DNA of 64,000 bases from an uncultured Candidatus Saccharibacteria bacterium (GCA_964600255.1 CAZRIX010000001.1:43948-107947); one strand, 5' to 3'. Shown: positions 23,294 to 61,098, counted from the first letter of the stretch. Notes: generated by a model from the sequence alone, not told the origin. Numbers and translations are program-made.

Positions 23294-25774
23294 TTATAAA
23301 CAAATAAGTGACGCCAATGAATCCCCATCTCTTAGCTTCATCACACGCACTCCTTGAGTTGAACGGCCTAGAGTTGGAATTTCATTTAGATTTACACGGA
23401 TAACTTGACTCTTCTTTGACATTGCCACCATTTCTTCGATCTCATCTGTAACAACCTTTGCAGCAATCAATGGACCTGTCTTGTCTGTGACGTTCATAGT
23501 TAGAATACCTGAGCCACCACGATTCTGTGTCTTGTATTCTTCAAGTTTTGTTTTCTTTCCATATCCATGAGCACCCATTACGAATAGTTTTGGATTCTTT
23601 GCGTCCTTTGATACAACATCAGCACTGATAACCGCATCGTCTTTACCAAGCTTTATCACACGAACTCCGGCTGCATTTCTGCCCATCTCACGAACGTCTT
23701 CAGCTTCGAAGCGGATTGATTGACCGTCACGAGTTGCAATAACCACATCATCATTCTTTGATACAAATGATGCAGACATTAGCTCATCACCATCTTCTAG
23801 TGTGATAGCGATCAAACCAGAACGACGAACGTCATGGAAATGTGTAGCTGAACTCTTCTTTCCTGTTCCATTCTTTGTAACCATCATCAAAGCTAGACCA
23901 TCTGCTTCCTTTTTGTTCTTTGGCATTGGCAAAATAGATGTGATTTTCTCTGATTCTGAAAGTGATAGGAAATTCATCACTGACTTACCACGAGTAGCTC
24001 TTTTACCCTCTGGAAGATCGTACATTTTGATCTGATATGCCTTTCCTTTATCTGTAAAGAAAAGAAGATCGTTGTGAGCATTGGCATAAACTAGGTGAGT
24101 AATGAAATCCTCTTCCTTTGTATCTAGATCAACAACTCCAACACCGCCACGCTTCTGCTGGCGATATTCATCTGGATTTGTGCGCTTTATGTAACCTCCC
24201 TTTGTAAGGACAAGTACACTTTCCTGATCTGGAATCAAATCTTCTGGATTGAAATCCTTTAGACCATGCTTTATCAAACGAGTACGTCTCTCGTCACCAT
24301 ACTTTGCCTTTATTTCAACCAATTCATCACGTATGATTCCGCGGATCTTTTTCTCACTACCTAGAATCTCTTTCAGCTTAGCGATAAGTTCCTGGATCTC
24401 AGCCAATTCATCTAGAACTTTCTTTCTCTCTAGACCAGCGAGCTTTTGCAAACGCATTTCAAGAATAGCTGTAGCTTGCTTTTCTGAGAATTTGAACTTT
24501 TTCATCAAATTAGCATGAGCCTCAACAGCATCCTTTGAACTACGGATCAAAGTTATGATTTCATCGATATGATCTAGAGCCTTTTTCAAGCCTAATAGAA
24601 TATGCTCGCGCTCTTCTGCTTTATTCAAATCAAATTGTGTACGACGGCGAACAACCTCAACTCTGTGTAGGATGAATTCTTCTAGGATAGACTTTAGAGA
24701 TAGAGTTTGAGGAACACCGTTTACCAGAGCAACTGTATTTACATGGAAAGTATCTTCGAGTTGAGTATGCTTGTAGATGTAGTTTAAAACCTTTTCTGGA
24801 TATGCACCGTTCTTGAGATCGATAACGATACGCATCTCTTTGTCTGATTCATCACGAAGACCCTTGATACCTTCGATAGCTTTGTCGCGAACTAGGTCTG
24901 CGATTCTCACTATCAATTCTGACTTGTTTACACGGTATGGAATTGAACTGATGATGATTTGGAATTGACCTTTCTTGTCTTCAACTATTTCTGCTTCACC
25001 ACGAACAACGATCCCTCCACGACCTGTTGAATATGCATGCTGGATATCCTTTTCTCCATACATAATTCCTCCAGTTGGGAAATCTGGACCCTTAATGAAT
25101 TGCAGTAGATCTTCTGTAGTTGCATTTTTGTTTTCTATCAAATGAGTAGTTGCATCTACAACCTCACCTAGGTTGTGAGGAGCTATATTTGTTGCCATAC
25201 CCACAGCAATACCCAAAGTTCCATTCAAAAGTAGGTTTGGAACAGCGGTTGGTAGAACTACTGGCTCTTTGCGTGTACCGTCGTAGTTTGGACGGAACTC
25301 CACAGTATCTTTCTCAATATCACGAAGAAGTTCAGCAGCAGGACGAGACATCTTGGCCTCGGTATAACGCATAGCAGCTGCTGGATCTCCGTCAATGTTA
25401 CCGAAGTTACCTTGACCTTGGATTAGCTGATATCTCATCTTAAAATCCTGAGCCATACCTACCATAGAATCGTAAACAGCAACGTCACCGTGAGGGTGGT
25501 AGTTACCAAGCACGTCTCCCACAACAACGGCAGACTTACGGAACTTTGCAGAGGCGGTTAGTCCCTTTTCATGCATTGCATAAAGGATTCTGCGGTGCAC
25601 AGGCTTCAAACCATCACGAACATCTGGAAGTGCACGTGCAGTAATAACTGACATGGCATAGTCCAAGTATGACTCACGCATTTCGGCCGTTATGTTTCTT
25701 GCGACAATTCCAAGCGCTGGATCTCGAGCTTCTGGAGCATCATTCTTCTCAGTTATTTCTGGTTTTTTTGCCAT
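23294..25774 (-). CDS. gyrA: DNA gyrase subunit A
   Basis: [15 protein letters not shown] signature. Active-site Tyr region. C-terminal beta-pinwheel repeats. 826 aa. Confidence 0.9.
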
Positions 25775-25887
25775 GGTTTTGTTGTGTTTTTGATAATTTT
25801 ATTTGGAAAGTATAGCAAAAAAATGGAGTTTTGTCGCGGTTATGTCTGTATTGACTTTGTGCCAAATAAATGTTATGATATGGTCTG

Positions 25888-26163
25888 ATGAAAAGAATTC
25901 AAATGGTGGGTGTCGCCATTGCTGCATACACTCTCTTAATTACAGTGGAGTACCTTTACCTAAATATATGGTGGTCGATGCCGATTTGGTTATTATCGGG
26001 CGTGACTGCATATAGACTCTCTAACCAGAAGGAGAGTCGCTACGCAATAATGATCCTGTCCTGCATCGCAGGACTGTTCTCTCTCGCCTATCTACTCGGA
26101 TACGTAGTGGCAGAGTACGACATAGAGAGAATTACAAACCCCGGTAAAAAAACCGGGGCATAA
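25888..26163 (+). CDS. Small hypothetical membrane protein
   Basis: 91-aa ORF with two hydrophobic helices. TTGACT-17-TATGAT promoter upstream. Stem-loops plus T-run downstream at 26140-26210. Confidence 0.4.
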   Translation: MKRIQMVGVAIAAYTLLITVEYLYLNIWWSMPIWLLSGVTAYRLSNQKESRYAIMILSCIAGLFSLAYLLGYVVAEYDIERITNPGKKTGA

Positions 26164-26220
26164 TCAAATTTCGCCCGCGGCACATCAAGTGTTCCGGGCG
26201 ATATTCTTTTTATAAACAAA

Positions 26221-28000: not shown

Positions 28001-28624
28001 TTATTTATCCAGAGATTCTACTGGTCGGAAACTGAAGTCTCGGATTATCCAATTTGCCCATTGTACATTATCTGGATATTTCTTACTCTTTATTAAATAG
28101 TGAATAATCAGTTTCTTCCCTACAGGATTTTCCACCAAAACATAATTGTACATGTCGTTATCTCTCAGAGCGTAACCTGTACCATTTTCTCCATTAAATT
28201 TATCTTCTAAGGTAAATGAATACGCGGGATTACCAGCAAAAGTTATTTGCTTCAAATCTCCAACCTTTGGATCATTACTTTTACTACTATCATCCAACTG
28301 CATGTTTCTAATACGTTGAGCATATTCTAAAAGTGGAGTTGTTGTTGGCTCATTAAGATCAACATTTATAGAGAAAATTTCACTTTCACCTGGAATTTCG
28401 AGATAAATATCTTTTTGAACCTCGAGAGAATTTCTGCCGTAATCATTGTCTGTACCCATTTTCATAAAAGATGGATAATCTAAAATGTATCTGTAAGTAT
28501 TGTTCATATACCTAAAAGAACTTTCTACCTTCCTCTTTTCTTTAGTGCTAGATAAATTTACCAGAGTCAAAACGACAGCTAGTAATATTAGTAATATAAA
28601 CAATAACGTTAAATTTTTCTTCAT
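28001..28624 (-). CDS. Hypothetical exported or lipo-protein
   Basis: N-terminal signal/TM segment LTLLFILLILLAVVLTLVNL. No recognisable motif. Confidence 0.4.
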   Translation of the reverse strand: MKKNLTLLFILLILLAVVLTLVNLSSTKEKRKVESSFRYMNNTYRYILDYPSFMKMGTDNDYGRNSLEVQKDIYLEIPGESEIFSINVDLNEPTTTPLLEYAQRIRNMQLDDSSKSNDPKVGDLKQITFAGNPAYSFTLEDKFNGENGTGYALRDNDMYNYVLVENPVGKKLIIHYLIKSKKYPDNVQWANWIIRDFSFRPVESLDK

Positions 28625-28670
28625 TATAATTAAATACTAGCACTAATTAAAAATTTAAGGAAGAATTAAA

Positions 28671-28760
28671 TTGACTTTGAGCATGACTCGGCTATAATTT
28701 GTACATTATACGGACATGGTCGCATCGAGATTCCCCGCCTTAAAGCGGGGTTTCGTTTTA
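28671..28760 (+). ncRNA. Candidate small RNA unit: promoter TTGACT-16-TATAAT plus ~55-nt transcript ending in an intrinsic terminator
   Basis: TTGACT at 28671-28676. TATAAT at 28693-28698. CCCCGCC-TTAAA-GCGGGG hairpin at 28733-28750 followed by TTTCGTTTT. No ORF between them. Confidence 0.35.
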
Positions 28761-29156
28761 TATAAAAGAGTTCATGCTTTTCTCCTTTATTAATTCAAAT
28801 TCTACTTCTCCAAGTCTCCTGATTAATCTAAGTAACCTGTTTGAGCTGTAAGATCTGATTTGATTCAATAATATGTAATTTAACTCCCCTTTATATAGTA
28901 TTGTGTATTTTAAATCTCTCTTATTTTTCTGTGATGTAATCGGTAAACCGATAAATGAATTTTCATTGAACTTCTTTAAAATTAAAACTGGTCTTTCAAA
29001 ATTATCATGTTTCCCATCAATCTCATTTCCGATATTTACTCCTGTTGATGTCCACCAAATTTCTCTATCCAAGAAAAAGAAAGAGTCTGGTAATACCCTC
29101 TTGTTTAGATCTTTTTTCTTATTGTTCCATTTATCATAATCCTTCTCATAACCCAT
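28758..29156 (-). CDS. PemK/MazF-family endoribonuclease toxin
   Basis: REIWW...ERPVLIL...FIGLPITS...LNQIRSY.. parallels Kid/MazF (GEIWLV, RPVLIV, LPVVPVTS, C-terminal RxxD). No antitoxin ORF adjacent. Confidence 0.65.
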   Translation of the reverse strand: MGYEKDYDKWNNKKKDLNKRVLPDSFFFLDREIWWTSTGVNIGNEIDGKHDNFERPVLILKKFNENSFIGLPITSQKNKRDLKYTILYKGELNYILLNQIRSYSSNRLLRLIRRLGEVEFELIKEKSMNSFI

Positions 29157-29306
29157 CCCTCAATTATGATAAATAGAAAAACTAAAACAATAGTAAAAAA
29201 TATAATAATTTTAACAATTTTTCATTCCGCGGGGATATGTTGGGGATAAGTAGAAAGACCGCTCAAGCTTTCGCTTGGCGGTCTGTTGTGTGGGTTTATG
29301 ACAACC

Positions 29307-29768
29307 CTATTTTCGCAATGTCGCGATAAGTGCAGATCGATCAATGAGCAAATCGAGCGCGTCTAAGATTGAAGTTGTAACGATGTCCGAATTTAAAAGC
29401 ACCTGTACATGTACACCCTCAGACTGAATCGTAACTATTCTGAGCTTGACCACCTTCATGAGCTCTAGATCTATCAAACCGTTGCCAATAGACACGCAAG
29501 TATCGGGATTGAGCTTTAACGCTTCATACCTTTTTGCGTCTCCATTTTCAGCCAAAATCCAATCAATACCCAATTCAGCAGCGATTTGATCTGCATTGTT
29601 GCGTGTATTGCCAGTAAAGAACAGGATATGATATCCAAGGTCCTTTAATCGTGTAAGGCGTTCCTTTACTCCTTCGGGGATTACTCCCATGACGGTTAAA
29701 GTGCCGTTAAGATCGAGAATGAGAGTTTTAAGCTCCAACTGACCGACACCGGGAATTTGGTATACCAT
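29307..29768 (-). CDS. Small HAD-superfamily hydrolase
   Basis: LILDLNGTL (DxD motif I). FFTGN motif II. GNGLID motif IV-like. ~153 aa. Confidence 0.5.
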   Translation of the reverse strand: MVYQIPGVGQLELKTLILDLNGTLTVMGVIPEGVKERLTRLKDLGYHILFFTGNTRNNADQIAAELGIDWILAENGDAKRYEALKLNPDTCVSIGNGLIDLELMKVVKLRIVTIQSEGVHVQVLLNSDIVTTSILDALDLLIDRSALIATLRK

Positions 29769-30028: not shown

Positions 30029-31180
30029 ATGATTAAAAAAACAAAGGACGTTGAGGTTGTGGAGGAAGCTCCAGTCAAGAAAGTTAAGAAGGAGAAGGTT
30101 GTCGTTGTTCCAAAGCTCGACACACAGATGGACAGAATCGTTCACGAATCTGCCAACCCACCACTTGTAGGTGAGCTAGTTGAAGGACCAGTTATTAATA
30201 TTGAGAAGTCAGCAGTTTATATTGATCTCGCACCATTTGGTACTGGTATCATTTATGGACGTGAATATCTTACAGCTCGCGATATTATCAAGAAAATAAA
30301 TATCGGGGATGTTATCGCTGCTAAGGTTATAGAAACAGACAACAAGGATGGATACTTGGAACTTTCTCTAAAGGAAGCTCGCCAGGCACTTATCTGGTCT
30401 GAAGCTGAAGCTGCTATTAACAACAAGACAACTCTTGAACTTCCAATCATCGAAGCAAACAAGGGAGGACTTATCATTCAGTGGCAAGGTATTTCTGGTT
30501 TCCTTCCAGCATCTCAACTTAAGACTGAACACTACCCTCGTGTAGCTGACGGTGACAAGGACAAGATTCTAGAAGAACTGAGAAAGCTTGTTGGAACAAA
30601 GATTTCAGTTTCTATCATTTCAGCAATTCCAAAGGAAGGTAAACTTATCTTCTCAGAGAAGACACCTGAATCAAAAGACAAGGAGAGAATTATCGGTAAA
30701 TACAAAGTTGGAGATACTATCGATGGAACAGTTACAGGTATCGTAGACTTCGGTGTTTTCGTTAAGCTTGAAGATGGACTAGAAGGACTTGTTCATATCT
30801 CAGAAATCGATTGGTCACTTGTAGAAGATCCACGTGCGCTATTTAAGGTAGGACAGAAGATCAAGGTGAAGGTAATCGAGATCAAGGAAGGAAAAGTTTC
30901 TCTATCTCTAAAAGCACTTAAGGAAAATCCTTGGGTAGAAGCTTCAAAGAAATACAAGAAGGATCAAGTAGTAGAAGGTGTAGTTATCAAGTTCAATAAG
31001 CACGGTGCCCTAGCTTCAATAGAAGAAGGAATCGCAGGACTTGTACACATTTCAGAATTTGGTTCAGAAGAAAAACTAAGGAAGACTCTAGAGTTAGGAA
31101 AGTCATACAGTTTCAAGATTACATTGTTTGATGTAAAGGAACAGAAGATGGCTCTATCTTTCACAGGAGAGAAGAAATAA
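30029..31180 (+). CDS. rpsA: 30S ribosomal protein S1 (short, ~4 S1 domains) with Lys/Val-rich N-terminus
   Basis: Repeated S1 domains, for example GDTIDGTVTGIVDFGVFVKL...GLVHISEI. 383 aa. Confidence 0.75.
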   Translation: MIKKTKDVEVVEEAPVKKVKKEKVVVVPKLDTQMDRIVHESANPPLVGELVEGPVINIEKSAVYIDLAPFGTGIIYGREYLTARDIIKKINIGDVIAAKVIETDNKDGYLELSLKEARQALIWSEAEAAINNKTTLELPIIEANKGGLIIQWQGISGFLPASQLKTEHYPRVADGDKDKILEELRKLVGTKISVSIISAIPKEGKLIFSEKTPESKDKERIIGKYKVGDTIDGTVTGIVDFGVFVKLEDGLEGLVHISEIDWSLVEDPRALFKVGQKIKVKVIEIKEGKVSLSLKALKENPWVEASKKYKKDQVVEGVVIKFNKHGALASIEEGIAGLVHISEFGSEEKLRKTLELGKSYSFKITLFDVKEQKMALSFTGEKK

Positions 31181-40306: not shown

Positions 40307-40448
40307 TCCTTGGTTAAGGTCTGTACTAATTTTAACATATGTAACTAGTTGAATAAGGTGGTGTTAAAAACTTCGATAACATAACCTTACATGCCGTCAG
40401 TCAAAAAACCGTATAGTTATTTTGATTGATCATTATATCAAATCTTTG

Positions 40449-40520
40449 TGACCCTACAGAGAGTCGAACTCTGGTTAACGGATTGAAAACCCGCTGTCCT
40501 AACCGTTAGACGATAGGGCC
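40449..40520 (-). tRNA. tRNA-Glu (UUC)
   Basis: 72-nt cloverleaf on the minus strand. Anticodon loop UUUUCAA. D- and T-arms close to bacterial tRNA-Glu. CCA not encoded. Confidence 0.8.
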
Positions 40521-40956: not shown

Positions 40957-41032
40957 GCGCGGTTAGCTCAGTTGGTAGAGCATCCCCTTGACGTGGGGAG
41001 GGTCACAGGTTCGAGTCCTGTATCGCGCACCA
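40957..41032 (+). tRNA. tRNA-Val (GAC), CCA encoded
   Basis: 76-nt cloverleaf GCGCGGTTAGCTCAGTTGGTAGAGC...ACAGGTTCGAGTCCTGT...CCA. Anticodon loop UUGACGU. Confidence 0.85.
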
Positions 41033-51795: not shown

Positions 51796-51950
51796 AAAAA
51801 GCCTGGCGACATCTACACTGATTAAAATATACACTATTGACATTTATTGGAAATAGTGTATATTTTAATTCTGTTTGGCAATAAAATACCGTGTGATCGA
51901 TTGCCACACAGGGATCCGAACGCTTCCGCGTCTCGGGTCTTCTTTATTTG

Positions 51951-52023
51951 TGCCAAGGACCAGGATCGAACTGGTGACCCTTCCCTCTTCAGGGGAATGC
52001 TCTACCAACTGAGCTACCTTGGC
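51951..52023 (-). tRNA. tRNA-Phe (GAA)
   Basis: 73-nt cloverleaf GCCAAGGTAGCTCAGTTGGTAGAGC-ATTCCCCTGAAGAGGGAA-...GGTTCGATCC. Anticodon loop CUGAAGA. CCA not encoded. Confidence 0.8.
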
Positions 52024-53765: not shown

Positions 53766-53767
53766 TG

Positions 53768-53839
53768 TGCCCTCGGCAGGAATCGAACCTACATCTACTC
53801 CTTAGGACGGAACTGTTCTATCCATTGAACTACGAGGGC
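53768..53839 (-). tRNA. tRNA-Arg (CCU)
   Basis: 72-nt cloverleaf. D- and T-arms nearly identical to E. coli tRNA-Arg(CCU). Anticodon loop GUCCUAA. Confidence 0.75.
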
Positions 53840-60657: not shown

Positions 60658-60737
60658 AATAAAATTTCAAGCGAATTATTAATAATCGAATATCACTTAT
60701 TATATCAAACAAAAAACCTCCTGTTAAGGAAGTTTTT

Positions 60738-61098
60738 TGATGTAACATATCGATAAGCCGAGTTCTGTACTTGGAAGTTTACACGACCAAGCGACAATCA
60801 TTTATCTGGGATTTACTTTACAGTAAACCTCAAGCGGCACTCTCAGTAGGTATTACTACCTACCAAGCACGGCCTTGCACTCAGGTAAGGATTTTGCCGT
60901 TGCACCTTGTATGTTGCCATACAAACTAATCCTAACGGATCCACTAGTCGTTTCCAACCAGTGCGTCTCTGTTCGCACCTCGCACCTCACGGCGGACGGG
61001 CGTTACCCGCTACCCTTTTAGAAGATTGCTCCTCCAAAGTGCTCGGACTTTCCTCTATTTATGCTTACGCATATACAGCGATTGTCTGATATGTACAA
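60738..61098 (-). ncRNA. rnpB: RNase P RNA (bacterial type)
   Basis: Minus strand carries the P4 halves GAGGAAAGUCCGAGC and ACAGAACUCGGCUUAUCG, plus GGGUAACGCC. P1 pairing UGUACAUAUCAGA with UCGAUAUGUUACA sets the ends. Confidence 0.8.

What the first reader, a model, noticed from the sequence alone, without database searches (positions are those of the whole stretch)
28662..28760. Stand-alone promoter plus terminator unit between a lipoprotein gene and the MazF-like gene: candidate ~55-nt sRNA
On the + strand, TTGACT (28671-76), a 16-nt spacer and TATAAT (28693-98) are followed ~35 nt later by a GC stem (CCCCGCC/GCGGGG) and a U-run. Both flanking genes are on the minus strand, and there is no ORF between them. 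The RNA's 3' end would abut the MazF-like stop codon. It might act as an antisense or antitoxin-like regulator.
Basis: seen in the sequence. Interest (0 to 1): 0.5.

Follow-up and report, generated by a model that had tools for sequence, protein, structure and literature searches.

The report
Small RNA partner of MazF toxin
The flagged promoter-plus-terminator is a real, conserved gene for a ~55-nucleotide RNA lying tail-to-tail with a MazF-type toxin gene that has no protein antidote, so the RNA is probably the antidote; the same pairing occurs in many uncultured CPR bacteria and on Campylobacter plasmids.

Summary
TTGACT-N16-TATAAT (28671-98), +1 at A28705, a GC hairpin and a U-run define a ~55-nt + strand RNA. 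Its tail contains the complement of the stop codon of the MazF/PemK-like gene (28758-29156, -).

In this window alone the unit is no rarer than chance (1 found, 0.7 expected). Comparison shows it is real:
- All 19 distinct loci found through toxin homologues (30-70% identity) carry a convergent promoter, two hairpins and a U-run at the toxin's 3' end.
- A 20-mer from the RNA retrieved 67 metagenome loci, all with this architecture; 54 of the 63 with enough sequence to judge have the toxin.
- Hairpin 2 covaries (14 of 15 pairs of the two-hairpin structure change on both sides). G-U/U-G pairs outnumber A-C/C-A 82 to 3, which fixes the strand. Promoter hexamers keep their position while the spacer varies.
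- No protein antitoxin recurs.

The same toxin subfamily on C. jejuni plasmid pVir has a Northern-verified convergent sRNA, CJpv3. Its start site is ~580-fold stronger than the toxin's.

Best reading: an RNA antitoxin. It acts either as a 3' antisense RNA (type I-like, favoured) or by binding the toxin (type III-like). No Rfam family matches. This is a new variant of a known kind.

The parts
28671..28676 (+). -35 hexamer TTGACT of the sRNA promoter
   Evidence: The position is conserved: TTGAC(T/A) with a 16-17 nt spacer in 66 distinct upstream sequences, while the spacer sequence is unconserved.
28693..28698 (+). -10 hexamer TATAAT
   Evidence: The consensus TAtA(a/c)T ends 6 nt before the +1 in 44 of 66 relatives.
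28705..28760 (+). Predicted sRNA, ~55-56 nt: 5' leader AUUAUAC, hairpin 1, linker, extended terminator hairpin 2, U-tail. The +1 is A28705.
   Evidence: Covariance-model hit at 28705-28763, 46.5 bits, E=6e-12. The +1 is A in 58 of 66 relatives, preceded by a pyrimidine. Fold.
28713..28721 (+). Hairpin 1: GAC-AUG-GUC here; GGC-UUCG-GCC in most relatives
   Evidence: Fold. Other stems seen in relatives are GCC/GGC, CCUC/GAGG, CACC/GGUG, UGCC/GGCA and GGG/CCC, always complementary. The C-to-U change in L008 keeps a pair (G-U) only on this strand.
28726..28755 (+). Hairpin 2, the intrinsic terminator: basal CGAGA/UUUCG with a UU bulge, core CCCCGC/GCGGGG (28733-28750), loop CUUAAA
   Evidence: All 11 pairs of this helix show changes on both sides in relatives. 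Close relatives have CCUCCC/GGGAGG and CCCGCC/GGCGGG.
28756..28760 (+). U-tail UUUUA. Its last three bases are the complement of the toxin stop codon TAA.
   Evidence: In 22 of 30 distinct relatives the stop codon lies 5-8 nt beyond the last paired base of the stem.
28758..29156 (-). MazF/PemK-family toxin gene (132 aa) with an extra N-terminal helix (motif DYDKWNNKKK); no MazE-like partner
   Evidence: PF02452 at E=1.6e-9. Profile against PDB: B. subtilis EndoA/MazF at E=1e-7, with the ERP Arg and PITS Thr/Ser aligned to the catalytic residues. AF2 pLDDT 82. Top Foldseek hits are all MazF. No recurrent upstream ORF in 42 loci.
29241..29249 (-). TTATCCCCA, a DnaA-box-like 9-mer ~85 nt upstream of the toxin start codon. 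Possible regulatory site; membership in the module is uncertain.
   Evidence: It is duplicated in relatives L008 and L011. Similar boxes sit just upstream of the sRNA -35 in 20 of 52 distinct relatives, against ~0.9 expected.

Best explanation
The unit is the gene for a ~55-nt structured sRNA. Together with the convergent MazF/PemK-type endoribonuclease gene it forms a two-gene toxin/RNA-antitoxin module with no protein antitoxin.

Proposed working:
- A near-consensus constitutive promoter makes the sRNA in large excess.
- The toxin strand has no U-tract after the hairpin, so toxin transcripts should run on through the sRNA gene. Their 3' ends would then be fully complementary to the sRNA.
- sRNA:mRNA duplexes starting right at the stop codon would be cut (RNase III type) or would otherwise destabilise or silence the toxin mRNA. 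This is how the 3'-overlapping type I systems work.
- Loss of the module or a shut-off of transcription would let the toxin act.

Shown: the sRNA gene is real and conserved, it is linked to this toxin subfamily, no protein antitoxin recurs, and a homologous sRNA is expressed in Campylobacter.

Inferred: toxin read-through, duplex formation, neutralisation, and toxicity of the protein.

My estimates: RNA antitoxin of some kind ~0.7; mainly 3'-antisense ~0.4; mainly direct toxin binding ~0.25.
For: Linkage to the toxin:
- All 19 distinct loci found through toxin homologues carry a convergent promoter, two hairpins and a U-run at the toxin 3' end. These include TGA-recoded genomes, and divergent variants that the covariance model (CM) misses under default filters or scores only marginally.
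- 54 of the 63 RNA-anchored loci with enough sequence to judge carry the toxin.
- No conserved small ORF lies next to the toxin in 42 distinct loci.
- The decay pattern fits an antitoxin. Truncated or frameshifted toxin genes with an intact sRNA gene occur (L203, L161/168, L170/181/213, L149, L162). An intact toxin gene without the sRNA unit was never seen.

The RNA itself:
- 94.8% of cells are paired against 79.1% in shuffles. 14 of 15 pairs change on both sides. The covariation score is 0.380 against 0.136 in shuffles and <=0.086 in slid controls.
- G-U/U-G pairs outnumber A-C/C-A 82 to 3.
- The promoter is conserved in position but not in its spacer.

Geometry:
- The stop codon lies 5-8 nt past the stem in 22 of 30 loci.
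- In several loci the ORF runs into the sRNA gene (L002-4, L012, L159, L163, L166, CJIE4).
- The toxin strand has no U-tract after the stem.

Mobile, multi-copy behaviour:
- A relative carries two modules 2.5 kb apart, and the window lacks the second. Flanking genes vary.

Experimental data for a homologue:
- The pVir PemK-like protein matches the family profile at 99.6% probability, E=9e-24.
- Its convergent sRNA CJpv3 (31119->31043, 77 nt) was detected by Northern blot.
- Its start site has step height 16164 against 28 for the toxin mRNA, and the RNA ends 5 nt from the stop codon.
Against: - There are no expression data for any CPR locus, and toxicity of this subfamily is untested here.
- The 3' end of the toxin mRNA is unknown. 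Overlap beyond the stop codon is inferred only from the missing U-tract.
- A purely cis-antisense role does not explain the conservation of hairpin 1. It is identical (GGCUUCGGCC), and with its linker nearly so, across loci whose toxins are only 37-68% identical and whose hairpin 2 stems all differ.
- The loops are mostly UUCG or GNRA tetraloops, which are poor sites for starting antisense pairing.
- There is no excess complementarity to the toxin translation-initiation region (-12.2 against -12.1 kcal/mol) or to the ORF (mean z = -0.7).
- 9 of 63 RNA-anchored loci (6 distinct contexts) lack the toxin. There the RNA faces other genes, such as a Fic/DOC-like gene and a class II Asp/Asn-type aminoacyl-tRNA synthetase gene.
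Confidence: 0.4

Rival explanations
1. The sRNA is an antitoxin that binds and inhibits the MazF-like protein directly (type III-like). Hairpin 1, the linker and the base of hairpin 2 form the recognition surface. The upper part of hairpin 2 serves only as the terminator.
For: - Hairpin 1 and the linker are invariant while hairpin 2 stems, the promoter spacer and the protein diverge. This points to a sequence-specific trans partner, and the toxin is the only consistently linked gene.
- The base of hairpin 2 keeps a conserved non-Watson-Crick motif (5' CCGAG / 3' CGAU).
- This toxin subfamily has its own basic/aromatic N-terminal helix (FDxWNxxKK; W10 invariant, K14 nearly so) that canonical MazF lacks.
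- From established knowledge: the type III toxins ToxN and AbiQ have a Kid/MazF-like fold and are inhibited by RNA.
- Orphan copies make sense as trans-acting immunity genes.
Against: - The fixed convergent position abutting the stop codon is not needed for a protein-binding RNA.
- There are no tandem repeats and no sign of toxin processing sites, unlike all known type III systems.
- No RNA sequence is conserved between the CPR and Campylobacterota versions, although the proteins are conserved.
- No binding data or modelling is available.
Confidence: 0.25
2. The sRNA unit is not an antitoxin. It could be a transcriptional insulator, in which a strong convergent promoter plus terminator stops read-through out of and into a mobile toxin gene. 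Or it could be an independent regulatory or housekeeping RNA that the toxin gene tends to sit beside.
For: - The unit occurs without the toxin in 9 of 63 loci, next to unrelated genes.
- DnaA-box-like sites lie at its promoter in 20 of 52 loci, which suggests regulation of its own.
- No pairing to the toxin translation-initiation region or ORF was found.
Against: - An insulator does not need a conserved hairpin 1 and linker.
- It is not a single-copy housekeeping RNA. Two diverged copies, each with its own toxin gene, occur within 2.5 kb in one relative, and similar second copies occur in L156 and L166.
- The toxin has no other candidate antidote.
- An intact toxin gene without the unit was never found (0 of 19).
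Confidence: 0.15
3. There is no gene here. The promoter match is chance and the hairpin is simply the terminator of the MazF-like gene, or part of a short ORF (28716-28793).
For: Within the window alone the promoter/terminator combination is not rarer than chance. The fold z-score is -1.49.
Against: - The U-run is on the + strand only.
- G-U/U-G pairs outnumber A-C/C-A 82 to 3.
- The hexamers and the +1 are conserved in position in 66 distinct sequences.
- The covariance-model hit has E=6e-12.
- The reading frame across the hairpin shifts between relatives because of indels.
- The homologous RNA has been seen on a Northern blot.
Confidence: 0.02

Closest known systems
sRNA candidate CJpv3 next to CJJ81176_pVir0047 on plasmid pVir of Campylobacter jejuni 81-176 (Dugar et al. 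2013, PMC3656092, Tables S5 and S12)
   Same: The toxin belongs to the same subfamily, including the N-terminal FDxWNxxKK helix (hhalign 99.6%, E=9e-24). It is solitary, with no annotated antitoxin. The sRNA is convergent and has its own TATAAT promoter. I predicted its start site from the sequence before looking, and it matched the published position 31119. The RNA ends 5 nt from the toxin stop codon. Its last two hairpins are joined by a short linker (the model predicts a single unpaired U).
   Different: It is 77 nt long with an extra 5' hairpin, and hairpin 1 is 9 bp. It has no detectable sequence or covariance-model similarity to the CPR RNA. The paper lists it only as an sRNA candidate with no assigned function.
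cjrA/cjpT type I toxin-antitoxin system of pVir (Shen et al. 2016, Mol Microbiol 101:909). Known to me only from memory and from citing sentences in PMC10470494 and PMC7826846.
   Same: An antisense sRNA antitoxin and a protein toxin on the same plasmid, shown experimentally. It may be the CJpv3/pVir0047 pair.
   Different: I could not verify which genes it comprises, because the paper is not held. pVir also carries another Northern-detected sRNA, CJpv2, beside small hydrophobic ORFs, and that pair would be a more typical type I system.
3'-overlapping type I systems: B. subtilis txpA/RatA and bsrG/SR4, and E. faecalis par (Fst / RNA II). From established knowledge.
   Same: A convergent small RNA with a strong promoter whose 3' part overlaps the toxin transcript. 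Both RNAs share a terminator region.
   Different: Those toxins are small membrane peptides, whereas this one is a 132-aa MazF-fold RNase. par also uses 5' repeats that mask the ribosome-binding site. I tested for equivalent pairing here and found none.
Type III systems ToxIN, CptIN and TenpIN. From established knowledge.
   Same: An endoribonuclease toxin of Kid/MazF-like fold controlled by a small structured RNA, with no protein antitoxin.
   Different: In those systems the antitoxin is a tandem repeat array upstream on the same strand, processed by the toxin. Here it is a single copy, convergent, with its own promoter and terminator. The toxin is a true PF02452 member and gives no ToxN or AbiQ match and no PADLOC hit.
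Canonical type II MazEF/PemIK
   Same: The toxin fold and the catalytic Arg and Thr/Ser positions.
   Different: There is no MazE/PemI gene, and the toxin has an extra N-terminal helix.

Membership tests
MazF/PemK toxin family (Pfam PF02452), for the partner gene | Sequence match above the curated threshold | tested here: met
   38.4 bits against a cut-off of 23.1, E=1.6e-9.
MazF/PemK toxin family (Pfam PF02452), for the partner gene | MazF/Kid fold with the catalytic Arg and Thr/Ser | tested here: met
   AF2 pLDDT 82. The top 50 Foldseek PDB hits are all MazF, MoxT or EndoA. The profile alignment places ERP and PITS on the B. subtilis MazF VRP and ITA motifs. Activity was not tested.
Type II MazEF/PemIK operon | An adjacent co-transcribed protein antitoxin gene | tested here: not met
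   No recurrent small same-strand ORF upstream in 42 distinct loci. Neighbouring genes differ between loci.
Type I toxin-antitoxin systems | The antitoxin is a cis-encoded RNA complementary to the toxin transcript | tested here: inconclusive
   The sRNA gene is convergent and reaches the stop codon. In some relatives the ORF runs into it. Overlap elsewhere depends on the unmapped 3' end of the toxin mRNA.
Type I toxin-antitoxin systems | The toxin is a small hydrophobic peptide (usual but not universal) | tested here: not met
   The toxin is a 132-aa soluble MazF-fold protein.
Type I toxin-antitoxin systems (par/Fst or hok/Sok style) | The RNA pairs with the toxin translation-initiation region | tested here: not met
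   Duplex energy of -12.2 against -12.1 kcal/mol for shuffled controls over 37 loci.
Type III toxin-antitoxin systems (ToxIN, CptIN, TenpIN) | The antitoxin is an array of tandem RNA repeats upstream of the toxin on the same strand | tested here: not met
   Only two trivial 9-nt x2 AT-rich repeats occur in 28400-29500. The RNA is single-copy and convergent.
Type III toxin-antitoxin systems (ToxIN, CptIN, TenpIN) | The RNA binds and inhibits the toxin protein | not testable with these tools
   This needs binding assays or protein-RNA modelling.
Any Rfam 15 family (including the pemK motif, which I recall from memory, and ToxI) | A covariance-model score at or above the gathering threshold | tested here: not met
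   No hit at the element in the window or in L002-L007 at E<=1. The best sub-threshold match is BjrC68 at 24.3 bits, below its gathering score of 39.
CJpv3/pVir0047-type module (Campylobacterota) | A homologous toxin with a convergent sRNA that ends at its stop codon | tested here: met
   The same layout occurs in Helicobacter and Nitratiruptor plasmids and in a CJIE4 prophage.
CJpv3/pVir0047-type module (Campylobacterota) | RNA sequence or profile similarity | tested here: not met
   The CPR covariance model gives no significant hit in six Campylobacterota loci. The best is 13.3 bits, E=0.05.

The most novel reading that the evidence does not exclude
A true MazF-family endoribonuclease is neutralised by direct binding of a single-copy, two-hairpin sRNA. 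That would be an evolutionary bridge between type II MazEF and type III ToxIN. It would be widespread in CPR bacteria (596 toxin clusters at 50% identity with E<=1e-30) and in Campylobacterota mobile elements. The sRNA promoter may also be wired to DnaA-box-like sites, which would couple toxin release to replication status or to phage-induced transcription shut-off.
Probability: 0.25. Interest if true: 0.8.

Novelty: new variant of a known kind. Interest (0 to 1): 0.62.

Why it matters
MazF/PemK toxins are the textbook case of protein-antitoxin (type II) control. This subfamily is large: 596 clusters at 50% identity with E<=1e-30 and 2062 with E<=1e-10. It appears to have replaced MazE with a small RNA.

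The RNA family is absent from Rfam and is not annotated in CPR genomes. In those genomes these genes are labelled 'type II toxin' and look like unguarded orphans.

The finding yields a defined RNA family with a working covariance model, and it gives CPR bacteria their first candidate RNA antitoxin. Because the same module sits on C. jejuni pVir and in CJIE4 prophages, where the sRNA is already Northern-verified, the mechanism can be tested directly in a culturable organism.

Tried and rejected
- Viral-contig scan with the 16-mer GGCTTCGGCCTCCGAG. All 120 hits were unrelated GC-rich phage coding or chance sequence, so the 16-mer is not specific. I used the 20-mer for the metagenome scan instead.
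- par/Fst-like pairing of the sRNA 5' part with the toxin translation-initiation region. No enrichment.
- Trans pairing with the toxin ORF. Mean z was -0.7. A recurring partial match to the IGAE codons (GGAGCCGA) could not be separated from shared ancestry or chance.
- A coding reading of the 25-codon ORF or of the 'KRNPA(L/V)RRGIS' frame across the hairpin. The frame is not kept between relatives.
- A K-turn, box C/D-like or sarcin-ricin-like reading of the CCGAG/CGAU motif. There is no 3-nt bulge and the 3' A is replaced by C or U in many loci, so I describe it only as a conserved internal mismatch motif.
- A closing helix between the 5' AUU and the 3' GAU. It is only 3 bp and is broken in the CGC/CGU variants, so it is not established.
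- Rfam, PADLOC and NCBIfam. No informative hits.
- Literature. I could not obtain Shen et al. 2016 or the supplement of Weinberg et al. 2017.
- Looking for a published start site beside the CJIE4 prophage homologue in the Dugar tables. It was not found; the files were truncated when stored.

Full report
**1. Observation**

The + strand carries TTGACT (28671-76), a 16-nt spacer and TATAAT (28693-98). About 35 nt further on lies the stem CCCCGC/GCGGGG (28733-50), followed by TTTCGTTTTA.

- The flanking genes are both on the minus strand. One is a 207-aa protein with an N-terminal hydrophobic segment and no family match (28001-28624). The other is a 132-aa PemK/MazF protein (28758-29156; PF02452, E=1.6e-9).
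- The toxin's TAA stop codon is the complement of the UUA that ends the U-run.
- On the toxin strand the stem is followed by AAUCUCGAUG, so the hairpin is a one-way, + strand terminator.
- Taken alone the unit is not statistically remarkable. Promoter-like and terminator-like sites occur at shuffle frequency. The combined unit occurs once in 64 kb against 0.7 in Markov resamplings. The fold z-score is -1.49.
- No Rfam family matches.

**2. Relatives found through the protein**

- The organism is a CPR/Patescibacteria bacterium.
- Six genome loci encode toxins 39-47% identical, from Saccharibacteria, Adlerbacteria and Doudnabacteria. All show the same thing just 3' of the toxin gene on the opposite strand: a -35/-10 pair, a short leader, a small hairpin, the motif YCGAG, a GC-rich hairpin of unrelated sequence, and a U-rich tail.
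- Further loci fetched through exact protein look-ups gave the same result. These include two TGA-recoded genomes (L142, L145).
- Some variants are scored only marginally by the covariance model, or missed under its default filters, but are clear by eye: L012, L166 second copy, L156 second copy, L216 and L217.
- In total, 19 of 19 distinct protein-anchored loci have the convergent unit.
- In the syntenic relatives L008 and L011 (70% and 64% protein identity) the core of hairpin 2 changed from CCCCGC/GCGGGG to CCUCCC/GGGAGG and CCCGCC/GGCGGG. Hairpin 1 changed C-G to U-G.

**3. Relatives found through the RNA**

- The 20-mer TTAGGGCTTCGGCCTCCGAG (leader, hairpin 1 and linker of the commonest type) retrieved 67 metagenome loci. 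Every one shows the full architecture.
- Of the 63 with room downstream, 54 have a MazF-like ORF in the convergent position. Nine loci (six distinct contexts) do not. In those the RNA faces, for example, a Fic/DOC-RhuM-like gene inside a type I restriction operon, the C-terminal end of a class II (Asp/Asn-type) aminoacyl-tRNA synthetase, or an aspartyl-protease-like gene.
- Several loci have truncated or frameshifted toxin genes beside an intact RNA gene. The reverse, an intact toxin without the RNA unit, was not seen.

**4. Structure, strand and promoter**

- I tested a two-hairpin structure on 46 distinct sequences. It pairs 94.8% of cells, against 79.1% in shuffles. Fourteen of 15 pairs have changes on both sides. 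The covariation score is 0.380, against 0.136 in shuffles (0 of 500 reach it) and <=0.086 when partners are slid.
- All 11 pairs of hairpin 2 covary. RNAalifold finds hairpin 2 independently.
- Hairpin 1 is nearly invariant in the RNA-anchored set, by construction. In other loci it appears as GCC/GGC, CCUC/GAGG, CACC/GGUG, UGCC/GGCA, GGG/CCC and GAC/GUC.
- G-U/U-G pairs outnumber A-C/C-A 82 to 3, so the promoter strand is the folded strand.
- In 66 distinct upstream sequences the -35 (TTGAC), the -10 (TAtAaT, ending 6 nt before the start), a pyrimidine at -1 and an A at +1 are fixed in position, while the spacer is unconstrained. This places the window's +1 at A28705.
- The covariance model R1 hits the window once, at 28705-28763 (46.5 bits, E=6e-12). 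It also finds a second module beside a second PemK gene 2.5 kb away in L008/L009, which the window lacks.

**5. The partner protein**

- A family profile matches B. subtilis EndoA/MazF and S. aureus MazF (E~1e-7), with the catalytic Arg and Thr/Ser positions aligned.
- The AF2 model (pLDDT 82) has a MazF core plus an extra N-terminal helix at residues 7-19, which carries the conserved FDxWNxxKK motif. Foldseek's top hits are all MazF-type.
- No small ORF recurs next to the gene in 42 distinct loci.
- The subfamily is large: 596 clusters at 50% identity with E<=1e-30.

**6. Tests that bear on mechanism**

- Pairing of the sRNA 5' part with the toxin ribosome-binding region is at background level. 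The same holds for pairing with the ORF.
- The stop codon lies 5-8 nt beyond the terminator stem in 22 of 30 distinct loci. In some loci the ORF reads into the RNA gene.
- Hairpin 1 (GGCUUCGGCC) is identical in seven protein-anchored loci whose toxins are 37-68% identical and whose hairpin 2 stems all differ. Six of these seven also share the 16-mer GGCUUCGGCCUCCGAG (hairpin 1 plus linker).
- Among RNA-anchored loci the adjacent toxins are 36-83% identical.
- A cis-antisense role alone does not explain this constraint. It suggests a sequence-specific partner.

**7. Known relatives**

- tblastn found the same subfamily on Campylobacter, Helicobacter and Nitratiruptor plasmids and in CJIE4 prophages. 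hhalign gave E=9e-24 for pVir and E=6e-39 for Nitratiruptor.
- Each locus has a convergent TATAAT, hairpin 1 (with compensatory differences between Helicobacter species), a short linker (1-3 nt) and a GC hairpin abutting the stop codon.
- From the pVir sequence I predicted a start site at 31119 in NC_008770 coordinates. Dugar et al. 2013 list exactly this. CJpv3 runs on the minus strand from 31119 to 31043, is 77 nt long, and was detected by Northern blot. Its start site has step height 16164, the highest on pVir, against 28 for the toxin mRNA start at 30608.
- pVir is also the plasmid on which Shen et al. 2016 described the type I pair cjrA/cjpT. I could not read that paper, and a second sRNA (CJpv2) beside small hydrophobic ORFs is an alternative candidate for it. 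The identity is therefore left open.

**8. Conclusion**

- The best-supported reading is a toxin/RNA-antitoxin module built on a MazF-family toxin (about 0.7).
- I favour a 3'-antisense, type I-like mode (about 0.4). The reasons are the fixed convergent position abutting the stop codon, the missing terminator on the toxin strand, and the likelihood that duplexes form given a large sRNA excess.
- Direct toxin binding (type III-like, about 0.25) is the main rival. It is the only model that explains the invariant hairpin 1 and linker and the subfamily-specific N-terminal helix.
- No CPR expression, toxicity or binding data exist, so every functional step is inferred.

Noticed in passing
L152, L155, L159, L185, L194, L199, L201, L202, L204, L212 and others (positions -47 to -62 from the sRNA +1); window 29241-29249: A DnaA-box-like 9-mer (<=1 mismatch to TTATCCACA, usually TGTGGATAA) lies just upstream of the sRNA -35 in 20 of 52 distinct loci, against ~0.9 expected from the background rate. 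The window has one (TTATCCCCA on the toxin strand) upstream of the toxin gene instead, and it is duplicated in L008 and L011.
   Followed up: partly
L008/L009 5235-5691; window 25800-26200: A close, syntenic relative carries a second toxin-sRNA module (142-aa PemK plus an element with hairpin 1 GCC-UUCG-GGC) 2.5 kb from the first. The window has an unrelated 91-aa membrane ORF there. L156 and L166 also carry two diverged modules.
   Followed up: partly
L192 4198-5243 (orientation with the RNA on +): An orphan copy of the sRNA gene faces a 323-aa RhuM/Fic-DOC-like gene (HPFTDGNKRNG motif) that sits between hsdM-like and hsdS-like genes of a type I restriction operon.
   Followed up: no
L002 3001-3954; L003, L004, L012, L159, L163, L166; L224 (CJIE4): In several relatives the toxin ORF has no stop codon before the sRNA gene and reads through its complement. 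In L002 it runs in frame into the downstream RNase H-like gene. Many family representatives are 160-400 aa long, consistent with such read-through calls.
   Followed up: partly
L142, L145-L147: Toxin homologues with in-frame TGA codons at conserved Gly/Trp positions come from recoded (code 4/25-type) genomes. They still carry the convergent sRNA unit, with fully different hairpin 1 stems (CACC-GUAA-GGUG and UGCC-AUAC-GGCA).
   Followed up: partly
L005 3376-3434: The consensus element gives a sub-threshold match to Rfam BjrC68, a Bradyrhizobiaceae sRNA (24.3 bits against a gathering score of 39). The shared layout is hairpin, CGAG, terminator hairpin. It is probably a generic resemblance.
   Followed up: no
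L219 (pVir) 25268-25700: pVir's other Northern-detected sRNA, CJpv2 (start 25268, +), faces small hydrophobic ORFs (35-71 aa) that RefSeq does not annotate. This looks like a classical type I toxin layout, and it could be the published cjrA/cjpT pair.
   Followed up: no
window 28001-28624 and 29307-29768: The 207-aa signal-anchored protein and the 153-aa HAD-like hydrolase that flank the module in the window are absent from the syntenic relatives L008-L011, where the order is S1 - toxin - sRNA - methyltransferase. The toxin-sRNA pair therefore stays together while its neighbours change.
   Followed up: no
window 60737-61097 (-); 40448-40520, 40957-41032, 51950-52023, 53767-53839: A bacterial class A RNase P RNA (135.6 bits) and four tRNA genes (Glu, Val, Phe, Arg) are the only Rfam or ARAGORN hits in the window.
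   Followed up: no
L185 and L202, upstream of the toxin gene: Two loci have a LexA/S24-peptidase-like ORF directly upstream of the toxin gene on the same strand. It does not recur elsewhere.
   Followed up: no
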